A stretch of 64,000 nt of DNA from positions 126,866 to 190,865 of IMG/VR virus record IMGVR_UViG_3300021364_003460, one strand, 5' to 3'. Below, piece after piece: positions 26,168-53,628 of the stretch. The translations under genes and the position numbers were made by a program. Source of the DNA: a virus. Numbering within the stretch: the first letter of the stretch is position 1; each line of letters begins with the position of its first letter. Below the pieces are notes generated by a model. The model did not search any database, was not told the DNA's origin, and saw nothing but the letters and a program-made list of their open reading frames with translations.

Positions 26168-28009
26168 CTAGACATCTGAAACAGAAAGTAGCTGGGTTAC
26201 AAAGCCTTTATCACCTTGAGCAGTCAGTCTATGCTGCACTACTCTAACTGTGTAGTAAGGAAGAATAAGATTGTTAATATCAGAAGGTAATCTGTTCACA
26301 CTATTGATAGTATCATTAACAAATTTAGAAGCAACAAGATTAGCTTCACCTCTTTGGTCTTGAGGTAAGTCTTTTACTGTAGCAGCTACTTTTTTAATCT
26401 CATCTCCTCTCTTAGTTTCTGTAAAGTTAACAGCATCAGCTTTACTATCTACTACAGTATACGTCTTAAAATCATGCAAGAAAGTATTGTAAACTCTGAT
26501 AGCTTCACCTGGACAGAAAGTAGGGTCCCCTACTACTGACATTTCTATACCTTGAGTATCTCTACTCCAGACTCTAGCATTAGCTAAAGCAATAAGTAAT
26601 GCACCATACTCTTGGTTAGGATAGGTAGCTAAACCCCCATCATAGATAATCTGTGTTTTACAAGGTGGAGCTACTGACCTATTAGCTAACTTAGGGTCTA
26701 ATACAGAGTAGCCAAACCTTAGTGAGCCTATTAATGAAGTTGCAGATCCTTTAGTAGTAGAGCTGTCTACAATTACAAAGTTATTAAAACTAAACAATGA
26801 AGAGCTAACCACTCTCATAGATTGAATCATTGCATTGAAACTAGGCGGTTTAACATCAGGTACATCTTTAGGATAAGTTCTATGGAAGTAAGTTCTATAT
26901 TGTCTGTCTACATCATCAAACCCTGATTCATCTTTCACTCTTGGACCTAATATAAAATCTCCATTAATGTGACTAGCAAAGAAATCCATAGGTCTCTCTT
27001 CAGTCTTAGCTATGTAATCTACTATCTCTAATGGAGTTTTATTAAGAACTTGTAAACTAGCTTTAGGTTCACCTTTAACTATAGGAGGTTTCTCTACCCA
27101 AGTATTAAATCTAGGTTTGGCTCGGTCATTCATTATTCTACAAGTAGCAGTCTGAATCCAAGCTGCTGGATCTTGTTGAGGAAACTGTAAGTTAGTCTGT
27201 TCATTTTGTATAGTAAAACCTTTAACAGACATTCCTCTCTCAATCAGTCTCCAACATCTAGCCTTAGTTAAGTTTTCTCCAAAAGGATTACCACTAGCAG
27301 CATTAGCTAATTGTAATAAGATTTCTGTTCTATCTCCACTAGCTAACCCTGATAAAGTAGCTTCATTAGCAGCAGCCTCTTGATTAAGTGCATCTTTGTT
27401 AACTTTGCCTTGGAATGCTTTAAGACTAAGAACTCTAGTATCAGCAAAAACTCTAGTTCTATCTCTACATTGGAGAGTTACTTTAAAACCTTGAGGGTTG
27501 GCATCATAAGTAATGTTATCTATAAATCCCCAAAAGATAGGGCAAAGTGGTTTATCTGGATTGTGAGTTACTTCTTTATTACTATTATTAATATCAGTAA
27601 AGTTAAAAGGTACTTCATCTAGTAAGTCAGCAGTAATAGGAGTAGTTGAAGAAGATACATAACCTGCATATATTCTTATTTCATCTTCTCTATCTAAGTA
27701 AGGATAATCACCTCCTCTATACAACTTTACATCAGGTAAAGAAGGTAGGAACATAGCAGTGTCAGGTAACTCACAAGTTAATGTTATCTGTGCTCGACTA
27801 GTTCCCCAATCTCTAGTTAAGTTAACAATAATTTCTTTAAGAGTCCACTCTAACTTAACTTTTTTCTTTTCATTAGGATTCTCTGGGTTAATGTAATCCC
27901 CTTTATCCCCAAAGTGATTAGTAAATAGAATAGGTTGGGTATTAGACTCTGCTGTAGCTAATGTGATTGCAGCAGCAGGAGTAGCAGCTTCAGGTGAGTA
28001 TATTTTCAT
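26168..28009 (-). CDS. Baseplate hub protein (gp27/Mu gp44-like)
   Basis: IFWGFIDNI, TLQCRDRTR; C-terminal VVGDPTFCPGEAIRV...Y.V..VQH......FVTQL. Confidence 0.7.
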   Translation of the reverse strand: MKIYSPEAATPAAAITLATAESNTQPILFTNHFGDKGDYINPENPNEKKKVKLEWTLKEIIVNLTRDWGTSRAQITLTCELPDTAMFLPSLPDVKLYRGGDYPYLDREDEIRIYAGYVSSSTTPITADLLDEVPFNFTDINNSNKEVTHNPDKPLCPIFWGFIDNITYDANPQGFKVTLQCRDRTRVFADTRVLSLKAFQGKVNKDALNQEAAANEATLSGLASGDRTEILLQLANAASGNPFGENLTKARCWRLIERGMSVKGFTIQNEQTNLQFPQQDPAAWIQTATCRIMNDRAKPRFNTWVEKPPIVKGEPKASLQVLNKTPLEIVDYIAKTEERPMDFFASHINGDFILGPRVKDESGFDDVDRQYRTYFHRTYPKDVPDVKPPSFNAMIQSMRVVSSSLFSFNNFVIVDSSTTKGSATSLIGSLRFGYSVLDPKLANRSVAPPCKTQIIYDGGLATYPNQEYGALLIALANARVWSRDTQGIEMSVVGDPTFCPGEAIRVYNTFLHDFKTYTVVDSKADAVNFTETKRGDEIKKVAATVKDLPQDQRGEANLVASKFVNDTINSVNRLPSDINNLILPYYTVRVVQHRLTAQGDKGFVTQLLSVSDV

Positions 28010-28096
28010 ATAGTAATTTCATAAACAAATAACACCTAGTTAGTTAAACTAAGTGCTATTTTAAGAGTTTAATTAAGGTATTAAATAGGAAGTTAA

Positions 28097-28834
28097 TTAA
28101 ACCACATTACTATTTGAGTTAGTAGTATCAATTCCTTGTTGAATAGTAGAACCTCCAAACCTATTTGTTACATTAAAAGGTTTAAAGCTCTGTTGATAAC
28201 TTCCAGTTGGGTCTATAATATATCCTTCAGCTACACCTTCCCATCTGTTAGCAATAATACGTCTACCAGGCATAATACCTTCAGACATACTATCTAATTT
28301 ACATCTAACTAAATGAATTCTTCCTCTATTTTTAGTTTGTTCAGGAGGATTCAGAAAAGTAGAATTTTTTAATCCAGCCTCAATAGGATTAAAATACCCT
28401 TCTGAAGGTCTAGGTCCAGACTCAGCTACATAAACATTTTGATTTATGCCTGTAGTACCTTGTAAACCTATAGCATTATAATCAATTGTAATTTGAAATC
28501 TTGGACCTCTTCCTATGTAAACATCTCTATTAAGATCATTTGTTCCAAACCATGCAGATAAATTATCTACATTAATTTTACCCCTTTCTAGTACCCAGGC
28601 TATCTGAATCTCCCCATCATAGTATGTAGGAATTCTTTGACCTAAAGTAAGATAAGTTTCCGTAGCATTTCTAATAGTAAAAGTACAAGATTGAAATTGA
28701 CCAACATCTAATACTTGTCCTGTTGATAAGTCAGTAGCCCATACTTCTACATCAAACCCTTGCATAGGGTCTATCTGAGTATTGTTAACTACTGCTCTAA
28801 AAGGATTTCCAGTTAAACTGCCTCTTATAGTCAT
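28097..28834 (-). CDS. Tail tube protein
   Basis: Directly follows the sheath; VGQFQSCTFTI....ETY..LG....Y.DGE..I...LERG pattern. Confidence 0.75.
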   Translation of the reverse strand: MTIRGSLTGNPFRAVVNNTQIDPMQGFDVEVWATDLSTGQVLDVGQFQSCTFTIRNATETYLTLGQRIPTYYDGEIQIAWVLERGKINVDNLSAWFGTNDLNRDVYIGRGPRFQITIDYNAIGLQGTTGINQNVYVAESGPRPSEGYFNPIEAGLKNSTFLNPPEQTKNRGRIHLVRCKLDSMSEGIMPGRRIIANRWEGVAEGYIIDPTGSYQQSFKPFNVTNRFGGSTIQQGIDTTNSNSNVV

Positions 28835-39105: not shown

Positions 39106-39591
39106 ATGAGGGGACCACTTCACCCAACTAGGATTGATATACCTTTAGAAACTAGAATTAAAGTAATAAATGAATTAGGAGTATTATTAGCTTCCTGTTC
39201 AGATATGTATGCACAAGCAAAGCAAGCTCACTGGAACATTAAAGGTAGTAGATTCCAAATGTTACATGAGCTATTTGATAAGGTAGCTGAACCTTTCCCA
39301 AGTTATGTAGACGCTTTAGGAGAAAGGATAACTGCATTAGGGGGCACTGCTATGGGAACTGTTAGGATGGCGGCTATTTCTAGCATCCTTCCTGAGTTCC
39401 CATATACTGAGTTTTCTGAAGAAACTTATCTTGATGCTATTGCTAATAGACTAGCTATTATGACAAAAGCTTTTAGAGAGAAAGGTAATATTATTAAAGA
39501 AGCAGGAGACCCAACTACAGAAAACTATCTGTTGGAGACTGCTATGGAAATAGATAAATTATTGTACTTTGTAGAAAGTCATCTGAATTAG
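39106..39591 (+). CDS. dps: Dps ferritin-like DNA-protection protein
   Basis: AKQAHWNIKG..F..LHELFD, D..GERI..LGG, DPTT, IDK.L.F.E.H. Confidence 0.92.
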   Translation: MRGPLHPTRIDIPLETRIKVINELGVLLASCSDMYAQAKQAHWNIKGSRFQMLHELFDKVAEPFPSYVDALGERITALGGTAMGTVRMAAISSILPEFPYTEFSEETYLDAIANRLAIMTKAFREKGNIIKEAGDPTTENYLLETAMEIDKLLYFVESHLN

Positions 39592-39665: not shown

Positions 39666-40091
39666 ATGAAATACAAACTAGAAACATTACTGGCTTTTAG
39701 AGCATTAAAAGAGACTATTTGGAAGTCTATTAAGAATGCAACTATTACAGATAACTTAGTATTAGAATTTGAAGCAGACTTAAAGAGTAACAAGGGTAAA
39801 CATAAAAAACAACTTAAGAATTTACTAAAGCAGCCTATACAAGATGAATATAAAACTTTGTTAACTGCTGAAATGTTAGCTGAGGGGTACTTATGTATAC
39901 CTATTAAAGGAGGCTGGGTAGTTATCAACCCTCAAGGTGAGAAATATGACTTAACTGAGAATGACTGCTCCTGTAATGATAAGACTTTATTAAATTATGA
40001 TGGTCCTTGTAAACATCTTGTGTTTAGAGATGGTTTAAACTTATATAGAAGTAGAGTTAACCAAGAGAAGATTAAGAGAGGCTTAACCTAA
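39666..40091 (+). CDS. SWIM zinc-finger protein
   Basis: YDLTENDCSC...PCKHLVF (CxC...CxH); GAGGAG SD. Confidence 0.8.
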   Translation: MKYKLETLLAFRALKETIWKSIKNATITDNLVLEFEADLKSNKGKHKKQLKNLLKQPIQDEYKTLLTAEMLAEGYLCIPIKGGWVVINPQGEKYDLTENDCSCNDKTLLNYDGPCKHLVFRDGLNLYRSRVNQEKIKRGLT

Positions 40092-41474
40092 AGGAAACCC
40101 TAACAAGTCTTTAATATAATTTCTTTCAGCTTCAGTCTTATTAAGTTGGTAAGGTTCAAACAAGTTTTTAATACCATCTAATATAGTTTTAAGTTCAGTG
40201 TCTCTAGCTGGCTTACATTGAATAGTTCCTGGATGCAGTGCTTCAGGAATTAATCTAGCATCAAAGTTGTATTGGATAAGTTGTAAGATAGCCTGGTTAA
40301 GTATATGCTCTACAACAAAGTCAAACAAACTAGCAATCATTTTATTAAACTGCTCAATTTGTCTTTCTGAAGTACCTCCACTACCTAAGCCTCCTATATT
40401 GTCTTTCATAATAAGGTTAGGTAGTCCCAAAATAGCTCTCATGTTATCATCACATAAGTCAATAGCATTGATAAAACTATCTGAGAAGTTATTACCTGTA
40501 GTCAATGCTCCTACTTCAACAGGTTGGTCTTTTGATAACTGAGTAAATACTAATGCAGATTCATTCTCTACTCCATCTTGTAACATCTCTGTTACTTTTT
40601 CCTGCATGCTCTTAGGTCTTACTTCCCCATCAGGCTCAGTAATCATTTCATCTGTAGCAGTAGGCGGAACTTTAACATAGATAAGTGGAGTAGCATATCT
40701 CATAGAAGCCTTAAATAAGATTTCTACAAAGGCGTGTTTATAGAGATACCAATAAAGACAAGCATTGATTAAAGACTTACCATAAAGGTTAGTAGCCTCA
40801 GACCTATAAGCCATGTATACTCTTTTACTTCTAGGTAGTCTTACTAAACTACCTACAGTATCAGTATTCTTAGATTTAGCTAGTTGAGGTACTTTATGTG
40901 GAGGTAGTGGAACCCAGACACCTGATTTGTAGACTTTATCATATACCTGCTCACCATCTTTTAGTATTCCATAGTCATTGGGTACTAAAGTTACTTGCAG
41001 TGGGTGGAAACTAATAAGATCATCTATCCAAGTTTGTGTCTCTTCATTTTTACCTATCTTTTGCATCCAGTTGATTTCCTGTACAGAATAACCAGACCAT
41101 AATGCAGTTCTTAAAGCATCTCTAACCCATTTCTTTAATTTAGTTTCTATGTTAGCTTGTACAAAGTCATCTATCTGAGAATTAGGGTGTGAATAGTTTC
41201 CTAACCTAGAAATGACTGCTGACTCAATATATTCTAAACCTTGCTTTACTATGGGTTCTTTTTCTCTTAAAGAGTCAAGTGCTACTAACTGATAATAGTT
41301 AGGTTTGTAGGTAGGAAAGTAATTATCAGCTTGTTCATTAGGAGTATATGACCTAGCAAAACCTAGTTGTCTAAATGCAGCAGGCTGTCTTCTATAAACT
41401 GCACTAGTATTGACTGGAGGTTTAGTTTCTAAAGTAGATATGTTTCCTTGAGTTGGATGAAGGTCAACTGCCAT
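40083..41474 (-). CDS. Portal protein (Mu gp29/DUF935-like)
   Basis: ALWSGYSVQEI.W; NLYGKSL...YWY.K; RYATP.IY.K; F...I..CD..M..ILG; AAGGAGG SD. Confidence 0.85.
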   Translation of the reverse strand: MAVDLHPTQGNISTLETKPPVNTSAVYRRQPAAFRQLGFARSYTPNEQADNYFPTYKPNYYQLVALDSLREKEPIVKQGLEYIESAVISRLGNYSHPNSQIDDFVQANIETKLKKWVRDALRTALWSGYSVQEINWMQKIGKNEETQTWIDDLISFHPLQVTLVPNDYGILKDGEQVYDKVYKSGVWVPLPPHKVPQLAKSKNTDTVGSLVRLPRSKRVYMAYRSEATNLYGKSLINACLYWYLYKHAFVEILFKASMRYATPLIYVKVPPTATDEMITEPDGEVRPKSMQEKVTEMLQDGVENESALVFTQLSKDQPVEVGALTTGNNFSDSFINAIDLCDDNMRAILGLPNLIMKDNIGGLGSGGTSERQIEQFNKMIASLFDFVVEHILNQAILQLIQYNFDARLIPEALHPGTIQCKPARDTELKTILDGIKNLFEPYQLNKTEAERNYIKDLLGFPLG

Positions 41475-41641: not shown

Positions 41642-42453
41642 TTATCCCATTTGAAATGTTGGTTTAGGCACTGTAGCAAAAGGACTAACATAAGGTGCAG
41701 ATTCCTGATTACCAGATATCTGTTTCATCAAACTATCTTTCTCTTCTTTTTCTTTCTTGTTTCTAGCTTCTATAACTGAAGAGACTGCTTGGTAGATAGC
41801 TTCCTGCCAATAAATATCTTTAGTTAGCCATTTATCTAAGTCCATTCCTGTTTGGTTAGCTACAATAACCCATTTTTCTAAACCTGCACTCTCTTTATAG
41901 TAAGTACCTACACTTTGGATTACTTGAAGTTTAAAACACTCAAACTCATAATCTGTAATGTAAGTATATAAAGATTCTCTTCCTAGTAAGCAGCCTCTAT
42001 ACTTGTAAGTTAAGTCTATTACTGGAGGCAGTAAAGTACCTCCATAATAGTTAGCAAATAGATTTAGCTTGCGCTCTTTCCAGTGGGTTGACTGGGTGCT
42101 GATTTCTTCTGAGTACCAACTAAGCTCTCTCCACTCAGTAGCTTTTTTGCAGCTTCTTTTGCGGTCTCTCTCTTCTCCATATCAGAGAAGTTTAATGCAG
42201 AGAAAATGTCAAAGTAGTAGAAAAAGTCATTTAAGTTCATTTGACCAATCAAAGTAACAGGGTCAATGTTAGCAGGAGTGGGTTCACCATCAATAGCTTC
42301 AATACATCTGATGGCAATCATGTCTTCTGCTGGTACACCTGTTTCTTTATCATAGTTTTTGTAAACTTCACTTTTATCTCTGTAGACTGCTGATCTAAAG
42401 GTAATTACTGCTTTGGAGTTAGGTAACTCAATTTGAAAAGGAGTTGTAGACAT
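41642..42453 (-). CDS. Tail assembly chaperone GT, product of a programmed -1 frameshift (~270 aa)
   Basis: A_AAA_AAG at 42148-42142; the -1 frame is open from there through the 67-aa ORF (MDLDKW...) to TAA at 41642. Confidence 0.75.
42064..42453 (-). CDS. Tail assembly chaperone G (129 aa; start revised to MSTTPFQ)
   Basis: IELP.S...ITFR...D; acidic helical C-terminus; in-frame slippery heptamer near the 3' end. Confidence 0.7.
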   Translation of the reverse strand: MSTTPFQIELPNSKAVITFRSAVYRDKSEVYKNYDKETGVPAEDMIAIRCIEAIDGEPTPANIDPVTLIGQMNLNDFFYYFDIFSALNFSDMEKRETAKEAAKKLLSGESLVGTQKKSAPSQPTGKSAS

Positions 42454-42460
42454 ATTTAAT

Positions 42461-42540
42461 TTTATACTCTTTTTAATAACTGTCTTTAATGTAGAGTTTA
42501 AAAAGAGTATAAAGTAGGCAAACTGTATATTGAGCCTACT
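42461..42540. promoter_or_regulatory. Tandem inverted repeats in the divergent chaperone/giant-gene intergenic region
   Basis: 16-bp perfect IR 42461-42476/42498-42513; 7-bp IR 42513-42519/42534-42540. Confidence 0.55.
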
Positions 42541-42603
42541 AGAACTAATGTAAATTGAGATAGCTTTATCAAAGTAATTAGCACAGCTTTCTCTAATTTC
42601 AGT

Positions 42604-45600
42604 ATGCAAGAACCATATAATTTTGAAGGGATATTTAAAAGTAGAGACAATGATAGTAAACCTAGCTTTCTAAGAGATGTAGTTAGGTTACACACTCATA
42701 ACTCTATGGAAGGTAATAAAGACTTTATCTTAGATAGGGAAGACCAGTTTGAAGGTTTCTTTTCTAAGAACTTTCAAGACCAAATAGAACAAAGAAGTAG
42801 AAACTTAGATTACAACAATAGAGAAAGGCTGACTAGAGAAGCTGTCTTTGAGCATGCTAATTACAGTTTTACAAGTAAACTACTTAACAATGCTAATGGA
42901 GTTATGGGAAGAATGTTTGCTTCTTTTGAGACTCCTAACTTGTTTGATGACTCTGATGAAAGTGAAAGGTTTGGTAGGGAGACTTTACATGAGTTTCTTA
43001 ATATACTAAAAGAGCCTGATGATATTAGAGAAAAGAGAATTAAAGAAAGTGTAGCCCCCAAACCTATAGCTGAAATGAACTATAAGTTTGATAACTACAT
43101 TAACAGTAATATTGAGAATGCTGAAAATGCTAGTAGACATATCAATAAAGATATTAGAGACTTTACTAATAGAGTTAATGCTCAAGACAGTATTATCAAC
43201 TATTTTACTAAAGGAGGACAAACTAGGTCTGTTAAGTTACTAGATAATGTTGGATACATCAACAGACCTGGTATTCTGCCTGCTATAAGTATGATTCATG
43301 ATGCTGAGAGTGAGTTATCTATTAATATCTTCCAGCTACAAAACAAACCTATTATTGACTATCTAACTTCTGACTTAGTTAACAGAGCAGAAGAGATTAG
43401 AAAACAAAGAAGACAGGGTGTTCAAGTTGATAACTTTAAATTCAGACTACAATTAGCTTGGAATGAAGAGTTAGCTAATGATGCTGCTGGTTACAATATC
43501 CTTGGACCTAACTTAACTGCTATTAGAACCTTTCAGAACTTAGCAACTAAGTATGCTGATGCTTTAGATATTACTGTGCAAACACTAGATAGAAGAAATC
43601 ATACTAAATTAATATTCAGTGACCAAGGGGCTTATATCTCTACACAAAACCAAACTGCTCCTGTAGGTAAGTCACTGTATCAAGCTGGTAGTAACTATGA
43701 ATCAGGTAGGTATGTTAGAAATCTACAGATTACTCAAGATAGTACAGTTAGTGAAAGAGGTGAAGCTAAACTCTACCAACAGGTAAAAGAGTTGCAAACT
43801 AAAATGTTTGGGCAGCAAAAGCTACTGCAAACTAATCAACCTAACATTAGTGGACCTGTAGAAACCTATGAGATGATGAGGTCTTCTTTAGATTACCTAC
43901 AAAAGAATAAAGGTAAAGGAGTTAAAGCAGACTTTATATTAGACCAAGTATTTCTCCTTCAATATGACAGTATGTTGTTTGATAAAGTTGCTGAAGGAGA
44001 AATGGGTCCTGAGTCTAAAGGTACTATAAAGAGAGTAATAACAGACTTAGATAAAAAGAAAGCTAAATATAGAGCTGATATACAAGAACCTTTAATGCTG
44101 GCTCTTATAGAAGGTAACGCTCATGTTACTACTGATGTTAGAAATTTTAAGCAAAATGTTCAAGAACCTATCTATACAGAGTTAATGAAATTAGATAGCT
44201 TTAGAGACAGTGGCTATAACTTAGATACCTTCTTAAATGATGATATATCTTTACCTACTGAAGAGAGAATTAGACGAGTAGAGGCTAAAGTAGGTAGTAG
44301 AAGTAGAGCTATCCAATTGTTAGCTATGACTTCTGGTAATATCCAAACAGCTAATGTACCAAGGCAGCACGTTAAAGCCAGTTTACTATACAGAACAAGT
44401 CCTAATGGTATTGAAGGTATAGCTGGTGAACTAAGCAGTTCTAACAGAGGTTTATACTCTATGTCATTAGTAGATAGTGACTTTGAAAGAGATATGACTA
44501 ACAATGAGTTAGGTATGATGTTCTACTCAGAAGACTTTGCTAAGGGACTTAAAGTGACTAAGCAAAGTCCTTACTCTTTAGAAAGTAATGAGGTTACTGA
44601 AGAGTTACAGGAATACACTAAACATTACATTTCTATGAAGTCTGATTTGTCTACAAGAAGAGTAGGTCAACTTGAGTATAGTAATGTTAACAACAGAGCT
44701 GAGTGGGAAAAGGATGTAGATAGAAAGAAACTAGCAAACTTGTTTGATAGCTTAAATGAGATGAACAAGTCTACTGGTGGAGATGCTATGAAAATTAGCT
44801 ATGACTATGATAGCAAAGGTCCTATTTCAATCTTAGTTGACTTAAACAATGGCTTAAAGTATAGGTTTACTGCATTACAAGGTGGAGTTAATAACCAAGG
44901 TTTTATCTATGAAATTAACAAGTCTAAAGTAATAGGTGAATCTGACTTTATTAACCAAAGTTCAGAAAGTATTAGAACTAGCTTTACTGATAATGGTAAT
45001 CCTTTGTTTATAAAAGCAGGTGAGAGGTTAACTCTAACTCCTATACAAACTACTATGTCTATGATTAGTAGTATTAGTTTAGAGGCTTCTCAAATAAGGT
45101 TAATCAGAGCACCCTTAATAGAATACCAAACTCATTATGCTCCAGGTGCAGAAGGTAGTGATAATTTTGATGCTGGTATCTCAAGGTATTTGTTAGCTTT
45201 ATCTGGTTATAGTGATAGAGGTGTTACTGATGTACTTAGCATTGACCAAGGTTCTATTATCAAAGGTGCATTAGAGAACTTACAACTAAGGATGCGTAAT
45301 AGTGATGCTACCTTAGATAAAGTTAGACAGTTTGCTGGTATAGATATTAATAATGAAGATAGACAAGCTAAACTACAATATCTAACTGATTTGATTCAAG
45401 TCTTTGGTAGTGTAAATGCTAATGATAGAAGACTGCTAATTACTGGAGAAGGCTTAGATGGCAGACAGAGTTTAAAGAGATTTATGTCTTCTCTGTTTAG
45501 CAGCCATGAGTATGCTGATGTACTTTATGACTTTATCCAATCTCAAGGAGACCCATTATACCAGCAAGCTACAGCTAATTATGTTAAAGAAGTAAGTAGT

Positions 45601-48600
45601 AGAGTGTTTGACCCTTATCTTAACAGAACTCAGGTTAGTGTATATGGTTCTACTCAAGCATATAGACAAAGACCTCTTTATGGTGTTAATGAAAGAAGAA
45701 CTGCCTTTGGTAGAGGAGTTAATAATGCTGCTCTTAGTAGTCTACAAGGTATGTTTAGATTAGGAGGCTATGCTTTAGCCGCTTCCCCCTTTGACCATAA
45801 TGCTACTGCTGACTTTGGTACTGACTTTAAAAATGGTAGTCTGCTCTTTATTCAGATTACTGGTACTGGAGGTAGTAGAGAAAAGTCAGGTTTAGAATAC
45901 TCTGGATATAATGAGTATGATAACTTGTTACCTTACTATCAGCATAAGAAGATAGGTACTGCTACAGGATTAGATATTATACAAGATGCTGGAGTAGGGT
46001 CTATTATAGATAAACAAAGTGTAACTGACTATAATAAGGCAATCGCCCACTTAGGACTTACTGTAGATTCAGATGACTTACTGCAAGGTAATGACAGGAT
46101 GTTGCTCTTTAACTTTGATGTTAAAAAGAAAGCATCTCAGATACCCCAGCGTATTAAGAATGTTATTGGTAGTAGACCTACTATGGAACTTACTACTCAA
46201 CTACAAGAATTAATAGAGTTAGGTAGCACCAAGTTTGCAGGTCAAGACATTAATAATATAGAAGCATTAAGGTCATCATACTTATCTAATCTTAGAAATA
46301 GAGTAGGAAATAAAGCTAACCTAATCACAGATATGTATGCTGTAGGTATAGAGTTTGGTGGACAGATTAGAGCTACCCTTAGTAATGATGTTGCAGAAGT
46401 TTTAGAATCTATTAGAGAAGATGTAAACACAGAGTTTGAAGGTGTAGATGAAGATACTAAAGCTGAAATATTAAGAGTTAGATTACTAAATGCAGACTTA
46501 TCAGGGCATTCTATTAGAAGCTTTACAGGTAGTTCAAAAAGAACAGGAAACTCATTTGTACTATTCCAACTTAGTGGAGCTTACTCAGATTACTCATTCT
46601 TAAACCCTGAGTTTGGCAGCACTGATACCTTAGATGGGATGCGAACTGGGTTTGCTGATAGAGCGGTTAAAGGTCATCAAGCTAGTAAGTTAAGTAGTCA
46701 AAGGTTGTTAGGTGCAGAAGGTGACTTTAACTTAGCTGATGAACTGCTTATCAAATCAGGTAGCTATATTAAGAGAGATAAAGAGACAGGTTTATTTCAT
46801 GTGTTCTCTTTTGATGAATCTCAGAATACTTATATTAGAGGGCAAGCTATCAGTTCTAGAAAAGAGTTTACTGTAGTTAGAAACCTGTTAGAAGCTGTTA
46901 AAGCAGAGCCTTCAATAGGTAGGTTAGGGGCAGTTAGTAATGCTGCTTCTTTTGAAGGAGAAATGGCTATAGAAATCCTTAGAGATGTAAGAATATTAGA
47001 AGGCGAAGTTACCTCTAATGAAATCAGAACTGAGATAGATTACATAAGAACTGGTAGAAGAGGTGGTAGTGCTAGACAGGAATCTCTATCAGGAGGACTA
47101 GCTAAGATGGTTCCTATTTACCTTTATGATGTAGACAATACTGAGAGAGGTAAAGGTTTACTCAGGCAAATGTTTGAACAATTTGAGAGAACATCAGGAA
47201 GAGTTGGTTCATTTGAAGGTGCAGGTAAACTAAGCTATAGTCAGTTTTATGGGGTAGTTAACCCAAGTAACCTTAAATCTTACTTCTATGAGCATGGTGC
47301 ACAGATACTAATAGATAGTAAGAAGAAAGCTGCACTATTAGGTACTGACGGTAAAACATTAGCTGCTGCTTTAGTAATGTCATTTGGTACTAGTAGATTT
47401 GCTAGTGGAGATAGAAATGGAGTATTAACTCAGTTAGCTAAAGTTGCTGGGAAAGGTCAATTAGGTCAGTTTTATCAAGACCAATATTTACTAAGCTTTT
47501 TACAACATAAAGGAGATGTTACTAAAGTTGGTGAAGGGTTTATTAATAGCTTTGTTGATAAGAAAACTAAAACAGAAAGTATATCCAACCTTCAAGTTAG
47601 AGCATTAGAATACATTGGTTTAGATTTAATCAGAGATGCTCTAACTGGAGCAAATCCTAATGCAGCTAGTGAAATTCAAAAGAGAGTAACAGACTTGTTA
47701 ACTGACACTACTGGGGTAGTAGGTAAAGAGTACCTTAATACAGGTAAAGATAGAGGTAGAGAGATGGCTATTATAGCTGCCTCTTTAGACTACTTTGTAC
47801 AGTTAACTCAAGCACAGGCTCATGATATAGCAGTAGTAAATACTACTAAAGATAGGTCAGCTTATTTGTCTTTAGGAACTATTGGAGGCATGAGCTATGA
47901 AGAATTAATTGAGAGAGAAAATGAAGGATTAAATCAACTAGTCAACCAATTAGGTAGAAGGTCATATACAGTTGGTATGTGGATGAGTTTATCTGGCTCT
48001 CAAAGTAAAGTAGCTATATCTAGTAAACTAGAATCCTTTATTGAAACTCAACATACTATCTTTGAACCTTTCTACACTAACTTAACTAAGTTTCAGAAAG
48101 GTGGTTCATTAGACTCACTTAGACAACTAATGGCAGGTTTCTATGGAGCTATGGCTGGTACTCATACAGGTGAGTTTCTTAATGCTATGTCTGGATTACA
48201 GCAAATAAACTTACTTGATACTAGAAACCCTATCTTTGCTTCTAAAATGGTTGGTTACTATAATGACCCCTTTACTTCAGATGCAGAGTTTAAAGAGTAC
48301 CAAAGAAATTATGAAATGTTTGGGGTGCTGCAATCTTTAGTAAGTAATGAGACAGGAGACACTATTAATGCAGCTTTACTAAAGAAAGTAATAGAAAAGT
48401 ATAGAAAGAATGCTGATGGATTAGACCTAAATCCAGATACCTTAAATACTGAACTTAGTAACCTAATAGAAGCTGCTGAAAACAACCAATTAGGTAGAGT
48501 ACAAGAAATCATTAATCAAGGTTATGAGTACAGTCTTTACCACTTTGAAAGAATGTATGCTGACTTTAGATTAAATCCTGATAAAGGAGATGCTAATGCA

Positions 48601-51600
48601 GGTCAAGCTATCTCTACAGGTTTACAAAGAAGTGCAGGAGCTAAAGGTAGGTTTGCATTCACTTTACCTGTAATGGAGTTTAATGATGATGGTAGTATTA
48701 AAGTTTATAAGAATAGTTTACAGAGAAGTTTCTCTCTAGCAGGTGAAGATTTAAAGATTATTGGTGAAAGCTTTGGTAACGTAGATGCTCCTATTCTTAA
48801 ATCTCAAGCTATCTTATGGCAAGCATTCTCTCCTAATAGTGCAGTAAGCAGGTTATTAGATAGAATCAATGATGGTAAGTCTATTAGTGAAATAGATGTT
48901 AGTGTAGAAGATTATGAAGAAATTATGAGATTCTACATTACAGCTATTAATATGCCTGTTGAGATAACAGAGGCTGTAGGTGTCTATGGTAATAAAATAC
49001 TAGGTAACAAAATAGGGTTTGCAGGAGGTACTACTACACCAGCAGCTTGGTTTATGGGAGGTACTCAAATGAGTATTCTACCTGAAACTATTATGGAGAG
49101 ACATGGTGCTGGTAGTAGTAATAGGAGAGATGCTTATGATAAAGTGTTGCAGCAGATTAAAGGTATAGATGAAACTTCTCAAACTATTTCTAATATAAGT
49201 GAAGATAAAAGAAACTTACAAATACTCAAAAAGTATTATTCTAATAGATTTGTAGACGCTGCTGAAAGAACCCCTTTAATCCAGGAAACTAAATCTAAGC
49301 AATACTTAACATATCTTGCTAGAACTCTTAACAAAGGTATATCAGCAGCGTCTACTTCTGAACTTAATTCATTAATTGAAAAGAGTAAAGAGTTTCAAGA
49401 GAGATTAAGTTTAGCAGGTAATAATGAACTTGAGCTTAATAGAATTATTACTGAAATAGAAGGTGGAATTTCTAATGAATCTAAATACTCTATTGCTTAC
49501 TACAGAAGAAGACTTCAGATTACTAATGTAGATGATAAAGAAAGGTTTGGAGTTAACTTAAATGAAGGTGGAGATCCCTTTGTTGACTTACTAGGTTTAT
49601 ATGAATTAAGAACTCTTAGGGCAGCAGCTATTAGTCAAGGAGGTACTTCTAGTAGGCTTAATGGTGAAGCTTTAGATAAAAGTCTAGAATTTGCTGAAAC
49701 TATGAAGCACTTTTACTCTCCTTTTAGAGGATTAATGATAGGTTCTCAAGCTGATACTAATCTACCTAAAGTTACCCCTGAAGAAATGGCACTTGAAATG
49801 AGAAGAGGTGCTAGTAAGTTAGAGAAAGCATTAGGTCTTAACTTTGATTCCATTAGCGGGTTAGAAAAAACAGCAGGTAAAATTTACTTTGAGAAAGTAA
49901 TAGGTAATATAGAAAACTTTGCTAAGGAAAGAATAGATGAGTTACAAAATAGATATAACTCAGAAGTTAATGGTGAGTTAGCTGAAGGTACTATAAAACG
50001 ACTACAAAAAATGATAGCTGATGTCAAATCTTATGGTAATAGATTAAGTGACGACATGAGTGAATATGATGTTAGAGATATAGCTTTATTACTAACAGGT
50101 GAAGTTGAGAAGTACCATGCTGAAATTAACTTAGGTATTACTCAGTCAATGAGACCTTCTCCTATGGGAGGTTCTTACTTAGGTAGAGCAGTCTATGACA
50201 CCTTTGGATTAGGAGATGTTAATAGATTAATGAGAAGCTGGGAGCTACCTATTAGCTTTACTCCAGGTGGACAAGAAGATGTAGACCACAGAAATAAGAC
50301 TCTTCACTTGTTTAACCCTTATAGCTGGTTAGTCAGTCACCTTGGAGACTTTGATGGAGACATGATAACTAATATGTTCAGAACTACAAGTCAACTAGAC
50401 TTGAGAGTGAGAACTTATGATGCTTCTATTGCTGCTGCTAAAGAAGAATTAATATTACTAGGAAATAAGATAAATGCTACAGTTCCAGATACAGAAGACT
50501 ACACTAAGTTAATTAAAACTAAAAGTGATACTGAAGATAGAATAGTAAACCTTGAGAAACAGAAAGCTGAGTTTAGTAGACTATCTCAGCAAACTAAAGA
50601 CAACACTACTTATAAAGAATATCAAATAGCTGCTGCTAAGTGGGTTGGCAACTACCTTAAAGTAGACTATAGAATGTTTCTAGATGAAAAACATGGTGGT
50701 TACAGATTAGAAAGTCAAGGTAATGTACCTCCAGAAGTATTGTTTACTTACACTGAACAAGGTAGAGGTTTGTTTGGTGGGATGGAAGCTATTGTTACTA
50801 AGTCAATGGATTTGTTTTATGACTTTAGAAAGTTAGCTGAGAATAAGTTGACTCTACAGACTTGGGGAGACGTACAGAATAGATTAGATAATCTTAATGA
50901 TTCTGGTTTAAAAGAACTAATACAAAAAGGTAATTTACCAGATGAACTTAGGGATGAAATCATTAGATTAAGTAGTGACTTTGAAGGAGACACTTTAGGT
51001 AGAGATGCTGCAATAGCTGAATATGTAGCTAGGTTATACAGTAGCCAATCAGGTTTAGAAACCTTACAAAAATACAACTTAAAAGGTATTGATGGATCCG
51101 CTATGACCCCTGACATCTTCATGGCTATGGAGAATACTTTAGGTCAAGCAGGTTCAGTAGTGTTAGGTAAATCATACAACACAATGGTTGGTATGTTGTA
51201 TACTGAGTCTCCTAACTTAGCTTTAAGTTATGCTTTACTAAATGACCCCGATGAGAAACTCCAAACTATTGTCAGGGAAGCTTATGGTGGTGGAGATATA
51301 GGTTTAGCTAAGTACAATGAACTAAAAGATGCTGCACAGCATAGCTTCCTTAAATCTCAGCAGATGGGTGAGTTTCTACAAGCTACTCAACAGATACTTA
51401 GAGATAGTATTAAGCCTAAAGATGCTGCTTTGTTTATTAAAGAGTTAGAAGAAGCTTTATTGAAGTATAGAAGTATAGAGGATGCTGATAAGAAACAGGA
51501 AGCTTACACTGAAATAGTTAACAAGTTTGGTCCAGGTAAAGGTTTAAAAGCTCTTATTCAAATGGAGTCTTTAGTACAAGATTTAACTATACTTAATAAT

Positions 51601-53628
51601 CAAATTAAAGATGACAATAAAGACCTACAATTACAGAAAACTTTAGAGAAGTATGAGTTAACTGATACTAAGAAAGAAGAGTTATTAAAGAGGCTAGGTT
51701 ATGATGAAACTACTGGTGATTATGATGTTTTCAGAGAAAGAGATGCTCAAGGTAATGTAATTGGCAGAGGATTCAATCAAAACATAGCTGCTGCTCAACT
51801 CACTAAAGAGTACATAGTAGCAGCTTACAAGACTAAACAAGATATGGTATCTGTGGTCTCTGACTTTGCTTACAGTAAAGGGCTAAATGATGGAGACTCT
51901 ACAGGTAGAAGTATGTTGTCTTCTTTTAGAGAAAACTTTAGTAAGTTTGATTCTACAGAGCAAGCTAGAATTACTAAGTTAGTACAAGCAGCAGATTCTT
52001 ATTTTACTGGAGGTGCAGACTTAGTTGGGTTAGCTGATGCTGAAAGTCAAGCCTTTATTGAAGCTTTGATAGATAGAGAGAACCAGCATAGGTCTTCTTA
52101 TGTTGATGAAGAAGGTAAGTTTGATAGAAAAAAAGCTAAAAAATGGTCTTGGACAACAGAAGACTATGAAGGTAAAACTGCTCAACAAGAAGAAGATTAT
52201 TATAAGAAACTATATGAAGCTCACGTTTATGCAACTACCTCTGATGCCTTTGGTAAGACTGTAGGTGACAATGGTGAAATGTTTATTAGGTTTGCTCAGT
52301 TTAACCAAGCTAGAAGAGATGTATATAGTGATAACCATTGGAGAGATACTGCTACTGGATTTGATATATTAAGTGACCCTCTAGCTATGGCTGAGATGTT
52401 AGGTATGGTATCAGGTAAGGTTACTCCTGAGTTCATAGGTAAAGCTATGAGAGTAGTAACTAATGCTGTTAGACAAAAAACTGGTGAAGCTAATCCTAGT
52501 TTAGAATCTATTACTAATGTAATCTTACAGGGTACTAGCATGAGTGAGACTCCTGAAGATAGAAAGATGAAGGAGATGTTTGCTTTTGTTCAGTCTAAAG
52601 ATAAGAGTGCTACAGAGCTATTAATGCAGACTGTAGAGAGCATGGCTTTAGGTAATATGTCTGCTACTGCTAAGGAGTTCATACAAAGAGGGCAGTTTGA
52701 TAACCAAGAAAACTTAACTCAAGCAGTCTTAAAAGAACACTTCTCTAAGATGGGATTTGATGCAGATGAATCTAATCTATTAGCTAACAGAGCTACTATG
52801 AGAGTTACTCAAGGTGCAGTAGCCCAAGTAGAAGCTAAGAAGATGATGGACAGAAACCAAATGGTTAATGTAATAGGTAGTCTTGGTAAAGATGCTGATG
52901 TGAAGGCTCAATCATTTATCTTTCCTGCATTAGGTCTCATAGGAGCAGCATTAGCTAGTGGTGACTTATCTCCAGAAGCCTTCCAAGTGGCAGCAGGTAC
53001 AGCACTAACCAACTTAAGTTATGTAAGGTGGAATAACCTTGAAAGTAATTTCAAAGGTACTGCTATGAATATGATTGGAGGTGGTGCTTTCAAGATGAGG
53101 TTAGCTCTACAAGAAAATGAAGGGGATGCAGGTAAAGCTATAGTCACTATGGCTACTAGAGAGTTAATAATGGGCAGTACAGCAGCTATAGTTAACAAAT
53201 ACGGCAGTGAGTATATTAATAAAGCTTTAGGGGGAATTAAGACTTTAGACTTTGATAGGTTTGAGTCTGCTAGAAATGTGGCTACCTCTACTATAACAGC
53301 AGTGGCATCTACTCTATTAGGTATGATGTTAGGTAATGGAGTGTTAGCCGCTGGAAAAATTATTAATAATGAGATTAATGAATCTGAACAAATAGTTAGT
53401 AAGATTAACCAAAGTATTCAACAAAGAGTATTCAATCAAGCTGCTGTTGAAGAGGAAGAAGAGTTAGCAGTTGAAGGGGATGGTGAATTCTTAGAATACA
53501 AAACTGTACATAACTGGGGAGAAGAAACTGATGTGGATTACACTACAGAAGAGTGGAGTATTAATGAAGAATTTAATTATGCTTTCAATAACACTCCTGT
53601 AGGTATGTACGCATTTGAACTTACTTAA
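42604..53628 (+). CDS. Giant 3674-aa protein: PLD-family domain + two-barrel RNA polymerase-like region + tape-measure-like C-terminus (candidate virion RNAP)
   Basis: H333-x-K335-x4-D340 and H589-x-K591; ILGNKIGFAG...Q..LP (~2132-2160), R2517-P, D2582FDGD2586; hydrophobic C-terminal helices. Confidence 0.7.
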   Translation: MQEPYNFEGIFKSRDNDSKPSFLRDVVRLHTHNSMEGNKDFILDREDQFEGFFSKNFQDQIEQRSRNLDYNNRERLTREAVFEHANYSFTSKLLNNANGVMGRMFASFETPNLFDDSDESERFGRETLHEFLNILKEPDDIREKRIKESVAPKPIAEMNYKFDNYINSNIENAENASRHINKDIRDFTNRVNAQDSIINYFTKGGQTRSVKLLDNVGYINRPGILPAISMIHDAESELSINIFQLQNKPIIDYLTSDLVNRAEEIRKQRRQGVQVDNFKFRLQLAWNEELANDAAGYNILGPNLTAIRTFQNLATKYADALDITVQTLDRRNHTKLIFSDQGAYISTQNQTAPVGKSLYQAGSNYESGRYVRNLQITQDSTVSERGEAKLYQQVKELQTKMFGQQKLLQTNQPNISGPVETYEMMRSSLDYLQKNKGKGVKADFILDQVFLLQYDSMLFDKVAEGEMGPESKGTIKRVITDLDKKKAKYRADIQEPLMLALIEGNAHVTTDVRNFKQNVQEPIYTELMKLDSFRDSGYNLDTFLNDDISLPTEERIRRVEAKVGSRSRAIQLLAMTSGNIQTANVPRQHVKASLLYRTSPNGIEGIAGELSSSNRGLYSMSLVDSDFERDMTNNELGMMFYSEDFAKGLKVTKQSPYSLESNEVTEELQEYTKHYISMKSDLSTRRVGQLEYSNVNNRAEWEKDVDRKKLANLFDSLNEMNKSTGGDAMKISYDYDSKGPISILVDLNNGLKYRFTALQGGVNNQGFIYEINKSKVIGESDFINQSSESIRTSFTDNGNPLFIKAGERLTLTPIQTTMSMISSISLEASQIRLIRAPLIEYQTHYAPGAEGSDNFDAGISRYLLALSGYSDRGVTDVLSIDQGSIIKGALENLQLRMRNSDATLDKVRQFAGIDINNEDRQAKLQYLTDLIQVFGSVNANDRRLLITGEGLDGRQSLKRFMSSLFSSHEYADVLYDFIQSQGDPLYQQATANYVKEVSSRVFDPYLNRTQVSVYGSTQAYRQRPLYGVNERRTAFGRGVNNAALSSLQGMFRLGGYALAASPFDHNATADFGTDFKNGSLLFIQITGTGGSREKSGLEYSGYNEYDNLLPYYQHKKIGTATGLDIIQDAGVGSIIDKQSVTDYNKAIAHLGLTVDSDDLLQGNDRMLLFNFDVKKKASQIPQRIKNVIGSRPTMELTTQLQELIELGSTKFAGQDINNIEALRSSYLSNLRNRVGNKANLITDMYAVGIEFGGQIRATLSNDVAEVLESIREDVNTEFEGVDEDTKAEILRVRLLNADLSGHSIRSFTGSSKRTGNSFVLFQLSGAYSDYSFLNPEFGSTDTLDGMRTGFADRAVKGHQASKLSSQRLLGAEGDFNLADELLIKSGSYIKRDKETGLFHVFSFDESQNTYIRGQAISSRKEFTVVRNLLEAVKAEPSIGRLGAVSNAASFEGEMAIEILRDVRILEGEVTSNEIRTEIDYIRTGRRGGSARQESLSGGLAKMVPIYLYDVDNTERGKGLLRQMFEQFERTSGRVGSFEGAGKLSYSQFYGVVNPSNLKSYFYEHGAQILIDSKKKAALLGTDGKTLAAALVMSFGTSRFASGDRNGVLTQLAKVAGKGQLGQFYQDQYLLSFLQHKGDVTKVGEGFINSFVDKKTKTESISNLQVRALEYIGLDLIRDALTGANPNAASEIQKRVTDLLTDTTGVVGKEYLNTGKDRGREMAIIAASLDYFVQLTQAQAHDIAVVNTTKDRSAYLSLGTIGGMSYEELIERENEGLNQLVNQLGRRSYTVGMWMSLSGSQSKVAISSKLESFIETQHTIFEPFYTNLTKFQKGGSLDSLRQLMAGFYGAMAGTHTGEFLNAMSGLQQINLLDTRNPIFASKMVGYYNDPFTSDAEFKEYQRNYEMFGVLQSLVSNETGDTINAALLKKVIEKYRKNADGLDLNPDTLNTELSNLIEAAENNQLGRVQEIINQGYEYSLYHFERMYADFRLNPDKGDANAGQAISTGLQRSAGAKGRFAFTLPVMEFNDDGSIKVYKNSLQRSFSLAGEDLKIIGESFGNVDAPILKSQAILWQAFSPNSAVSRLLDRINDGKSISEIDVSVEDYEEIMRFYITAINMPVEITEAVGVYGNKILGNKIGFAGGTTTPAAWFMGGTQMSILPETIMERHGAGSSNRRDAYDKVLQQIKGIDETSQTISNISEDKRNLQILKKYYSNRFVDAAERTPLIQETKSKQYLTYLARTLNKGISAASTSELNSLIEKSKEFQERLSLAGNNELELNRIITEIEGGISNESKYSIAYYRRRLQITNVDDKERFGVNLNEGGDPFVDLLGLYELRTLRAAAISQGGTSSRLNGEALDKSLEFAETMKHFYSPFRGLMIGSQADTNLPKVTPEEMALEMRRGASKLEKALGLNFDSISGLEKTAGKIYFEKVIGNIENFAKERIDELQNRYNSEVNGELAEGTIKRLQKMIADVKSYGNRLSDDMSEYDVRDIALLLTGEVEKYHAEINLGITQSMRPSPMGGSYLGRAVYDTFGLGDVNRLMRSWELPISFTPGGQEDVDHRNKTLHLFNPYSWLVSHLGDFDGDMITNMFRTTSQLDLRVRTYDASIAAAKEELILLGNKINATVPDTEDYTKLIKTKSDTEDRIVNLEKQKAEFSRLSQQTKDNTTYKEYQIAAAKWVGNYLKVDYRMFLDEKHGGYRLESQGNVPPEVLFTYTEQGRGLFGGMEAIVTKSMDLFYDFRKLAENKLTLQTWGDVQNRLDNLNDSGLKELIQKGNLPDELRDEIIRLSSDFEGDTLGRDAAIAEYVARLYSSQSGLETLQKYNLKGIDGSAMTPDIFMAMENTLGQAGSVVLGKSYNTMVGMLYTESPNLALSYALLNDPDEKLQTIVREAYGGGDIGLAKYNELKDAAQHSFLKSQQMGEFLQATQQILRDSIKPKDAALFIKELEEALLKYRSIEDADKKQEAYTEIVNKFGPGKGLKALIQMESLVQDLTILNNQIKDDNKDLQLQKTLEKYELTDTKKEELLKRLGYDETTGDYDVFRERDAQGNVIGRGFNQNIAAAQLTKEYIVAAYKTKQDMVSVVSDFAYSKGLNDGDSTGRSMLSSFRENFSKFDSTEQARITKLVQAADSYFTGGADLVGLADAESQAFIEALIDRENQHRSSYVDEEGKFDRKKAKKWSWTTEDYEGKTAQQEEDYYKKLYEAHVYATTSDAFGKTVGDNGEMFIRFAQFNQARRDVYSDNHWRDTATGFDILSDPLAMAEMLGMVSGKVTPEFIGKAMRVVTNAVRQKTGEANPSLESITNVILQGTSMSETPEDRKMKEMFAFVQSKDKSATELLMQTVESMALGNMSATAKEFIQRGQFDNQENLTQAVLKEHFSKMGFDADESNLLANRATMRVTQGAVAQVEAKKMMDRNQMVNVIGSLGKDADVKAQSFIFPALGLIGAALASGDLSPEAFQVAAGTALTNLSYVRWNNLESNFKGTAMNMIGGGAFKMRLALQENEGDAGKAIVTMATRELIMGSTAAIVNKYGSEYINKALGGIKTLDFDRFESARNVATSTITAVASTLLGMMLGNGVLAAGKIINNEINESEQIVSKINQSIQQRVFNQAAVEEEEELAVEGDGEFLEYKTVHNWGEETDVDYTTEEWSINEEFNYAFNNTPVGMYAFELT

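What the first reader, a model, noticed from the sequence alone, without database searches (positions are those of the whole stretch)
41642..53628. Giant gene sits head-to-head with the G/GT tail chaperone: possible inverted tape-measure/RNAP fusion
Established: frameshifted G/GT chaperones normally lie directly upstream of, and co-oriented with, the tape measure gene. Seen: here G/GT is followed by the portal and no tape measure follows tube or sheath. The giant ORF starts 150 bp away on the opposite strand. Its last ~250 aa carry hydrophobic Gly/Ala helices (FIFPALGLIGAALASG; TITAVASTLLGMMLGNGVLAAG) and an acidic tail. Inference: the giant protein is the tape measure carrying PLD and RNAP cargo, placed under separate divergent control.
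Basis: inference. Interest (0 to 1): 0.72.

Follow-up and report, generated by a model that had tools for sequence, protein, structure and literature searches.

The report
Giant polymerase-nuclease gene beside tail chaperone
A 3,674-residue gene in a relative of the Microcystis bloom phage Ma-LMM01 sits back-to-back with a frameshifted tail chaperone and probably encodes an injected nuclease plus RNA polymerase, but the evidence leans against it being the tail's length ruler.

Summary
The window is the structural block of a 190.9-kb cyanomyovirus related to Ma-LMM01. A 3,674-aa ORF (42604-53628, +) starts 150 nt from a divergent 129-aa gene. That gene has an in-frame A_AAA_AAG slip site and a 166-codon -1 extension (G/GT type), and a Mu-type portal follows it. 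The tube gene is followed by a beta-rich hub-like protein, not a tape measure.

Across at least 15 related loci the giant gene always lies next to G/GT: mostly divergent, and co-oriented upstream in two. The giant family (34 cluster representatives in 1.8 billion proteins) keeps two invariant PLD HKD motifs, an invariant R-x2-P-x-G plus D[FYW]DGD, and two C-terminal hydrophobic helices.

The tape-measure reading is not shown, and the evidence leans against it:
- At 1.5 A per residue the ortholog would specify about 530 nm, against a reported 230-260 nm tail.
- It matches no tape-measure family.
- Its C-terminal module is found in no other protein.
- It is never downstream of G/GT.

It is not refuted either. 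I found no conventional tape measure, and the 1,117-aa candidate is ambiguous. Fold searches did not confirm the polymerase fold.

Best reading: an ejected nuclease-polymerase pilot protein. This scan has noted tape-measure-fused polymerases before, on other DNA.

The parts
42604..53628 (+). Giant ORF, 3,674 aa (P0001); ortholog of Ma-LMM01 gp080 (3,562 aa, annotated hypothetical)
   Evidence: PHROG phrog_31006 (unknown function), E 3.7e-221
43600..43650 (+). First HKD motif (H333, K335, N349), invariant in 28 family members
   Evidence: A weak motif-level match to poxvirus virion nicking-joining enzyme and PLD4 exonuclease. UniProt names the Ma-LMM01 ortholog a PLD phosphodiesterase domain protein
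44368..44445 (+). Second HKD motif (H589, K591, N614), invariant
46150..46176 (+). Invariant basic motif R1183-x-K1185-N1186-x2-G1189; function unassigned, possibly part of the polymerase
50152..50361 (+). R2517-x2-P2520-x-G2522 followed about 60 aa later by G-D-F-D-G-D (D2582, D2584, D2586 at 50347-50361). This is the putative catalytic barrel of a two-barrel RNA polymerase
   Evidence: Invariant in all full-length members as D[FYW]DGD. Fold not confirmed
52900..52971 (+). C-terminal hydrophobic Gly/Ala helix 1 (aa 3433-3456)
53278..53355 (+). C-terminal hydrophobic helix 2 (aa 3559-3584), followed by an acidic tail
42454..42603 (.). 150-nt divergent intergenic region between the giant gene and G
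   Evidence: One weak sigma-70-like site faces G, no more than shuffled sequence gives
42064..42453 (-). G: 129-aa product of the zero frame (tail-assembly-chaperone type)
   Evidence: PHROG phrog_32670, unknown function. The nearest named Atlas clusters are all Phage_TAC families, scores 0.89-0.90, which is a lead only
42142..42148 (-). Slippery heptamer A_AAA_AAG in the -1 frameshift register
41642..42142 (-). T extension: 166 codons in the -1 frame, giving GT of about 270 aa. Its last 67 codons are the ATG-started ORF 41845-41642
   Evidence: alignment A5 of seven T parts
40083..41474 (-). Portal protein (Mu type), next gene after G/GT
26168..28834 (-). Tube-position gene (28834-28097, 245 aa) followed directly by a 613-aa hub-like protein (28009-26168). 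There is no tape measure between them
   Evidence: There are motif-level alignments to the N-terminal part of Mu gp44 and the C-terminal part of P2 gpD, with low probability. Pfam finds no Phage_GPD
16284..19637 (-). 1,117-aa protein (ortholog of Ma-LMM01 gp098). It is the best remaining tape-measure candidate, but ambiguous

Best explanation
The giant gene encodes a virion-carried, ejected 'pilot' protein rather than the tail's ruler.

Proposed mechanism:
- It is made with the morphogenesis genes and built into the particle in a few copies.
- On infection it is unfolded and passed through the contractile tail.
- Its two C-terminal hydrophobic helices insert into the host membrane at the DNA entry site.
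- Its N-terminal PLD-type phosphodiesterase acts on nucleic acid.
- Its single-chain two-barrel RNA polymerase (catalytic DFDGD at aa 2582-2586) transcribes the first phage genes.

The neighbouring G/GT pair is a genuine frameshifted tail assembly chaperone. Its client, the true tape measure, most likely lies in the baseplate cluster, with the 1,117-aa protein as the best candidate.

Shown:
- the ORF;
- the conserved motifs;
- the conserved frameshift;
- the conserved synteny;
- expression of the ortholog at the middle/late time.

Inferred:
- packaging into the virion and ejection;
- polymerase and nuclease activity;
- membrane insertion;
- which protein G/GT serves.
For: 1. Family-wide invariance of two HKD motifs, of R-x2-P-x-G plus D[FYW]DGD, and of two C-terminal hydrophobic helices, in proteins that are always 3,500-4,400 aa long.
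2. The Ma-LMM01 ortholog gp080 is silent at the first two sampled times. It then rises with the structural genes but to a lower level (log2 8.5, against 13.2 for gp081). That pattern fits a low-copy virion component and not an early enzyme.
3. Size and layout parallel known injected polymerases. P23-45 gp96 was recognised by the same DFDGD motif alone and then proven to be a polymerase (PMC10770324).
4. Against a ruler role: 3,562 aa x 1.5 A is about 530 nm, versus a 230-260 nm tail in MaMV-DH01.
5. No tape-measure family match in Pfam or PHROGs.
6. aa 1990-3150 is predicted as a compact fold at pLDDT 75.
7. The C-terminal module is unique to this family.
8. The tail module keeps its gene order, including a 1,041-1,177-aa protein, even in distant relatives.
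Against: - Foldseek and VIA-align found no RNA polymerase match for the aa 1990-3150 model.
- hhalign against P23-45 gp96 aligned only the DFDGD motif.
- I did not identify a second barrel.
- I found no virion proteome for this phage group.
- No conventional tape measure was found anywhere in the 190.9-kb genome.
- The 1,117-aa candidate folds poorly (pLDDT 46.5), and weak hits suggest a spike-like beta-helix in it.
- Tail chaperone genes are normally adjacent to the tape measure gene. Here the only large neighbour of G/GT is the giant gene, in every locus examined.
Confidence: 0.5

Rival explanations
1. One reading: the giant protein is the tape measure, or at least the tail-lumen protein served by G/GT. 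It would carry the PLD and polymerase domains as cargo, as in Thermus phage P23-45 gp96, but in a contractile-tailed phage and encoded apart from the tail genes.
For: - G/GT and the giant gene are neighbours in all loci examined, in two orientations.
- No tape measure lies between tube and hub in any relative.
- No other protein in the genome matches a tape-measure family, apart from lysin domains.
- C-terminal hydrophobic Gly/Ala helices are typical of tape measures.
- P23-45 is a precedent, and this scan has notes of similar nuclease-polymerase rulers elsewhere (unchecked).
Against: - The length is more than twice what the reported tail of a close relative needs.
- The chain is rich in invariant polar residues and predicted folded domains rather than a variable helical ruler.
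- No tape-measure family match.
- The C-terminal module is not shared with any other protein.
- The gene is never downstream of and co-oriented with G/GT, and one in-place inversion explains the kept adjacency.
Confidence: 0.2
2. The D-x-D-G-D motif is not a polymerase active site. The giant would then be a structural or DNA-handling virion protein (for example an inner-body or ejection protein with a PLD nuclease), and its conserved acidic motif would bind metal for another purpose.
For: - No sequence or fold match to any RNA polymerase.
- The published Ma-LMM01 transcriptome found only host-type sigma-70-like promoters for all gene classes.
Against: - The motif and its surroundings (hydrophobic-P...LG-DFDGD-x-hydrophobic, with an upstream R..P) match the beta-prime pattern.
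- The motif is invariant across 20-30% identity.
- P23-45 gp96 was equally undetectable by sequence and was then proven to be a polymerase.
Confidence: 0.15
3. The giant protein is not packaged. It would act inside the infected cell as a middle/late transcription and DNA-processing enzyme.
For: The Ma-LMM01 study classed the ortholog as 'middle', with a predicted middle promoter.
Against: - The same class (B5) holds the portal and baseplate genes.
- The gene sits at the head of the structural block in every relative.
- Two conserved C-terminal membrane-type helices and the size fit injected proteins better than a soluble enzyme.
Confidence: 0.1

Closest known systems
Thermus phage P23-45 gp96 (also P74-26, G20c, TSP4): tape-measure-fused virion two-barrel RNA polymerase (Chaban et al. 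2024, PMC10770324)
   Same: - A giant virion-module protein with a DFDGD motif and otherwise no detectable similarity to polymerases.
- Hydrophobic membrane-type segments.
- Proposed coupling of DNA entry to first transcription.
   Different: - gp96 sits in the tape-measure slot of a siphovirus, after the chaperone, and its 5,002 aa fit its very long tail.
- In gp96 the polymerase is N-terminal and an M23 peptidase is present.
- Here the phage is a myovirus and the gene is outside the tail module, divergent from or upstream of G/GT.
- Here the polymerase motif is at aa 2582 of 3,674, a PLD domain is N-terminal, there is no peptidase, and the length does not fit the tail.
- hhalign aligns only the motif.
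Coliphage N4 gp50 virion RNA polymerase (about 3,500 aa); comparison from my own knowledge
   Same: A similar-sized giant protein. In N4 it is carried in the capsid, injected, has a central polymerase, and has terminal regions used for injection and packaging. This is the functional model I favour.
   Different: N4 gp50 is a T7-like single-subunit polymerase in a podovirus and has no DxDGD two-barrel motif. The only N4 rows in the fold search were non-significant.
crAss-like phage phi14:2 gp66 virion RNA polymerase (PDB 6VR4; cited in PMC10770324)
   Same: A single-chain two-barrel polymerase delivered from the virion. It lies in a large protein encoded with structural genes.
   Different: It belongs to a podovirus, is 2,180 aa, and has no PLD or C-terminal membrane helices reported. 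No sequence or fold match was obtained here.
Lambda gpG/gpGT, P2 gpE/E+E', Mu gp41: frameshifted tail assembly chaperones
   Same: - Size of both products.
- A -1 slip on an X_XXY_YYZ heptamer near the end of G.
- A long T extension.
- Conservation of the slip site.
   Different: - Here the pair lies at the head of the structural block, before the portal, not between tube and tape measure.
- No Pfam Phage_TAC match and no hhalign match to P2 gpE or Mu gp41.

Membership tests
Tail tape measure protein (functional class) | Gene lies downstream of and co-oriented with the G/GT chaperone, between the tube and the distal tail or hub genes | tested here: not met
   Divergent from G/GT in the window, Ma-LMM01 and most loci; co-oriented but upstream in L010 and L012. 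The tube is followed directly by a hub-like gene.
Tail tape measure protein (functional class) | Length proportional to tail length (about 1.5 A per residue) | tested here: not met
   The MaMV-DH01 ortholog is 3,562 aa, which gives about 530 nm. Its reported tail is 230-260 nm. The tail length of the window's own phage is unknown.
Tail tape measure protein (functional class) | Match to a tape-measure family profile | tested here: not met
   Pfam found nothing above noise. The only PHROG match is phrog_31006, of unknown function.
Tail tape measure protein (functional class) | Hydrophobic or transmembrane-like segments | tested here: met
   aa 3433-3456 and 3559-3584, conserved in position across the family.
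Tail tape measure protein (functional class) | Located in the tail tube lumen of the virion | not testable with these tools
   Needs virion mass spectrometry or cryo-EM.
Two-barrel (beta/beta-prime type) RNA polymerase | DxDxD metal-binding motif in the beta-prime-type barrel | tested here: met
   D[FYW]DGD is invariant in 30 full-length members, with an upstream invariant R-x2-P-x-G.
Two-barrel (beta/beta-prime type) RNA polymerase | Double-psi beta-barrel fold around the motif, and a second barrel with conserved lysines | tested here: inconclusive
   The AF2 model of aa 1990-3150 (pLDDT 75) gave no polymerase hit with Foldseek PDB, VIA wide or BFVD. A helical hairpin filled the VIA list. I did not identify a second barrel.
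P23-45 gp96-type tape-measure-fused virion RNA polymerase | Sequence or profile homology to gp96 | tested here: inconclusive
   hhalign of a 28-sequence alignment against gp96 aa 1-1200 aligned only 20 columns at DFDGD, probability 0.45%.
PLD superfamily (HKD phosphodiesterases) | Two HxK(x)4D...GSxN motifs in one chain | tested here: met
   H333/K335/N349 and H589/K591/N614 are invariant, and the consensus has the typical NHxK....D..A.IGS.N form. PDB profile hits to PLD nucleases are motif-level only, E 0.06-0.46. The Pfam PLD models do not fire.
G/GT-type tail assembly chaperone | Programmed -1 frameshift on a slippery heptamer near the 3' end of a gene of about 130 codons, giving a product about twice as long | tested here: met
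   A_AAA_AAG is in register and followed by a 166-codon -1 ORF. It is conserved in Ma-LMM01 and 12 IMG/VR loci, and appears as G_GGA_AAG in a distant relative.
G/GT-type tail assembly chaperone | Homology to a known chaperone family | tested here: inconclusive
   No Pfam Phage_TAC hit for any of 7 members. hhalign against P2 gpE and Mu gp41 gave nothing. The nearest named Atlas clusters are all Phage_TAC families at 0.89-0.90.

The most novel reading that the evidence does not exclude
The giant protein is the tail-lumen (tape-measure-equivalent) protein of a contractile-tailed phage. It would be folded back on itself in the tube and loaded by the adjacent G/GT chaperone. That would make it a nuclease-polymerase-ruler fusion in a myovirus, encoded apart from the tail genes. 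It would also mean that the Ma-LMM01 group of bloom-controlling cyanophages injects its own RNA polymerase, contrary to the published host-polymerase-only model.
Probability: 0.2. Interest if true: 0.8.

Novelty: new variant of a known kind. Interest (0 to 1): 0.6.

Why it matters
Ma-LMM01-type phages are the main cultured model for viral control of toxic Microcystis blooms. Their published transcription model uses only the host polymerase (PMC5780444).

A conserved, late-made giant protein with an RNA-polymerase-type catalytic motif, a PLD nuclease and membrane helices would change that model. It would also add a contractile-tailed lineage to the short list of phages that inject a cell-type polymerase.

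Separately, this phage group has a clear G/GT chaperone, unannotated in Ma-LMM01 where it joins gp081 and gp082, but no recognisable tape measure. That makes it a good system for asking how tail length is set when the usual gene order is broken.

Tried and rejected
- **613-aa gene after the tube as the tape measure.** This was my first guess. I rejected it on reading the sequence: beta-rich, 6% Pro, very conserved, with hub-like terminal motifs.
- **phmmer and profile searches of the giant against PDB sequences.** No polymerase was found.
- **hhalign against P23-45 gp96.** Only the motif aligned.
- **Fold searches on the aa 1990-3150 model.** Foldseek PDB, VIA wide and BFVD gave only helical noise and the protein's own Ma-LMM01 ortholog.
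- **AF2 of the 1,117-aa protein.** Too low in confidence (46.5) to settle its role. VIA gave only weak spike-type beta-helix hits, Z 5.6-7.8.
- **ESM Atlas on the 1,117-aa protein.** Nothing useful.
- **Pfam on the hub homologs.** No Phage_GPD.
- **hhalign of G against P2 gpE and Mu gp41, and Pfam on seven G proteins.** Nothing.
- **Search for the giant's C-terminal module in shorter proteins.** Only fragments of the same family turned up.
- **Search for a relative that has the tail module but lacks the giant.** The Elainella assembly gave no match to either the polymerase-region or the N-terminal (PLD-region) query, but it is incomplete. The Bdellovibrionota MAG does hold the giant's N-terminus, head-to-head with G, on a short contig.
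- **Other large ORFs of the genome.** The 2,796-aa protein (N-terminal nuclease, ten hydrophobic segments) is too long for a ruler. The 1,285-aa protein has only a 526-aa ortholog family.
- **Literature for tail lengths of Ma-LMM01 and MaMV-DC.** Not retrievable.

Full report
**What the window is**

- The major head protein, sheath, portal and the giant ORF all find their only phage relatives in Microcystis phages Ma-LMM01, MaMV-DC, MaMV-DH01 and related isolates, and in Microcoleus phage My-WqHQDG. Identities are 24-41%.
- The genome held for the window is a single 190,865-bp virus record. The window is its last 64 kb.
- The minus strand carries one long morphogenesis block, in this order:
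  - G/GT;
  - a Mu-type portal;
  - a 697-aa scaffold- or protease-like protein;
  - the major head protein;
  - four unassigned genes;
  - the sheath;
  - the tube-position gene;
  - a 613-aa protein;
  - a 770-aa baseplate protein with VanY and beta-lactamase-type domains;
  - an amidase;
  - a 449-aa M23 peptidase protein, whose N-terminal part looks transglycosylase-like to me (not matched by Pfam);
  - 206-aa and 425-aa proteins;
  - the 1,117-aa protein;
  - two small genes;
  - a Baseplate_J protein;
  - fibre-like genes.

- The giant ORF is 42604-53628 (+), 3,674 aa.
- G starts at the ATG at 42453, 150 nt from the giant's ATG on the other strand.
- Its codons GCA AAA AAG (42150-42142) give A_AAA_AAG in the slip register. 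The -1 frame is open for 166 further codons, to 41642.
- In Ma-LMM01 the same heptamer, in the same register, links the separately annotated gp081 and gp082.
- The heptamer recurs in twelve IMG/VR loci.
- A distant relative, on a contig binned with a Bdellovibrionota MAG, has G_GGA_AAG a few codons downstream and a -1 ORF of about 190 codons.
- One locus (L012) has lost the canonical heptamer.
- This is a real, conserved programmed frameshift of the G/GT kind.
- Homology to a named chaperone family could not be shown. The only pointer is that the nearest named Atlas clusters are all Phage_TAC families.

**The giant protein family**

- A full HMMER pass over 1.84 billion representatives with aa 2101-3200 found 34 clusters. 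Nearly all are 3,500-4,400 aa, and none is a known polymerase.
- In a 28-sequence alignment the invariant residues include:
  - H333, K335, N349 and H589, K591, N614, which are two HKD motifs of canonical PLD form;
  - R1183, K1185, N1186;
  - R2517, P2520, G2522;
  - D2582, D2584, G2585, D2586.
- Two hydrophobic helices lie about 240 and 110 residues from the C-terminus in nearly every member.
- A PDB profile search aligned the first HKD motif with a poxvirus virion nicking-joining enzyme and with PLD4 exonuclease. The E-values were not significant.
- BFVD shows that UniProt already labels Ma-LMM01 gp080 as a PLD-domain protein.

**The polymerase reading rests on the motif set only**

- An AF2 model of aa 1990-3150 was reasonable (pLDDT 75.4, pTM 0.61).
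- Foldseek against PDB, VIA-align against 48,161 chains and Foldseek against BFVD gave no polymerase match. A helical hairpin just after the motif filled the VIA list.
- hhalign against P23-45 gp96 aligned only the DFDGD stretch.
- P23-45 gp96 was itself recognised from that motif alone before it was proven experimentally. I therefore rate the polymerase reading as probable, not shown.

**Evidence against the giant being the tape measure**

- The ortholog in MaMV-DH01 is 3,562 aa. At 1.5 A per residue (the conversion is from my own knowledge) that is about 530 nm. The paper reports a 230-260 nm tail.
- The protein matches no tape-measure family in Pfam or PHROGs.
- Invariant polar residues occur all along the chain, and at least one third of it is predicted to fold compactly.
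- The C-terminal hydrophobic module is found in no other kind of protein.
- The gene is never downstream of G/GT.

**Evidence for the giant being the tape measure**

- In every locus examined the giant gene is the neighbour of G/GT.
  - It is head-to-head in the window, Ma-LMM01, most IMG/VR loci and the distant MAG contig.
  - It is co-oriented and directly upstream in L010 and L012.
  - A single in-place inversion would give both arrangements, so this alone does not prove selection for linkage.
- No relative has a tape measure between tube and hub.
- I could not find a conventional tape measure anywhere in the genome.

**The 1,117-aa protein is the best alternative, but ambiguous**

- It is kept at 1,041-1,177 aa in all relatives, including distant ones.
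- It evolves fast: only ten homolog clusters, against more than 129 for the 613-aa protein.
- At 1.5-1.7 A per residue, its orthologs of about 1,160-1,177 aa would give 174-200 nm.
- It has about 435 predicted helical residues, with a Gly-rich hydrophobic stretch at 657-687.
- Against it, the model is poor (pLDDT 46.5).
- Its aa 156-386 beta-hairpin repeats gave weak hits to central-spike beta-helices: phi92 gp138, VgrG and the phiKZ spike, at Z 5.6-7.8.

**Expression**

- In the Ma-LMM01 transcriptome table, gp080 has no reads at the first two sampled times. It then reaches log2 7.3 and 8.5.
- It falls in the same class (B5) as the portal and baseplate genes.
- gp081 reaches 13.2 and gp098 reaches 9.7.
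- This fits a low-copy protein made for the next virion. That paper recognised no phage polymerase.

**Verdict**

- The object is real, conserved and, as far as the searched literature goes, undescribed beyond an automatic PLD label.
- The most likely mechanism is an ejected nuclease-polymerase pilot protein with a membrane anchor (0.5).
- The tape-measure reading keeps about 0.2.
- The scan has noted tape-measure-fused polymerases in other lineages before. Those notes are unchecked and did not enter my scoring.

Noticed in passing
outside the window: genome G000 98094-106484 (-), locus L002:1095-9485: A second giant ORF of 2,796 aa, orthologous to Ma-LMM01 gp120 (2,898 aa). It has an N-terminal SNase-like nuclease match and ten Gly/Ala-rich hydrophobic segments. 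It closes the structural block just after the terminase, so the block is bracketed by two giants. It may be a second ejected protein.
   Followed up: partly
window 39106-39591 (+) and 39666-40091 (+): By eye, a Dps/ferritin-like gene and a small Cys-rich gene. They lie on the opposite strand between portal and scaffold. The same pair sits beside the portal in the distant MAG contig L021 (293-775 and 1488-1892).
   Followed up: no
window 23813-26125 (-): A 770-aa baseplate protein that carries both a VanY D-Ala-D-Ala carboxypeptidase domain (E 5.9e-40) and a Beta-lactamase2 domain (E 1.3e-20).
   Followed up: partly
window 16284-19637 (-): The 1,117-aa protein has an unusual predicted layout: N-terminal helices, spike-like beta-hairpin repeats (aa 156-386), a Pro-rich disordered linker, about 435 helical residues and a C-terminal beta domain (pLDDT 70-83).
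   Followed up: partly
L001 13446-14239 (Ma-LMM01 gp081 and gp082): The public Ma-LMM01 and MaMV-DH01 records annotate G and the end of T as two separate hypothetical genes. The -1 frameshift product is not annotated.
   Followed up: yes
L012 5363-5471: One relative has AAG GAG where the others have AAA AAG, so it lacks a canonical heptamer. Its -1 frame is still open. It may use another slip site, or it may be a sequencing variant.
   Followed up: partly
outside the window: genome G000 118015-119604 (-): A 529-aa serine-recombinase-type integrase (phrog_95, E 5.8e-51) lies inside the late region of this otherwise lytic-looking phage.
   Followed up: no
window 36931-39024 (-): The 697-aa protein between portal and major head protein carries DUF6321 (E 8.5e-16) and is much longer than its Ma-LMM01 counterpart gp085 (450 aa).
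   Followed up: no
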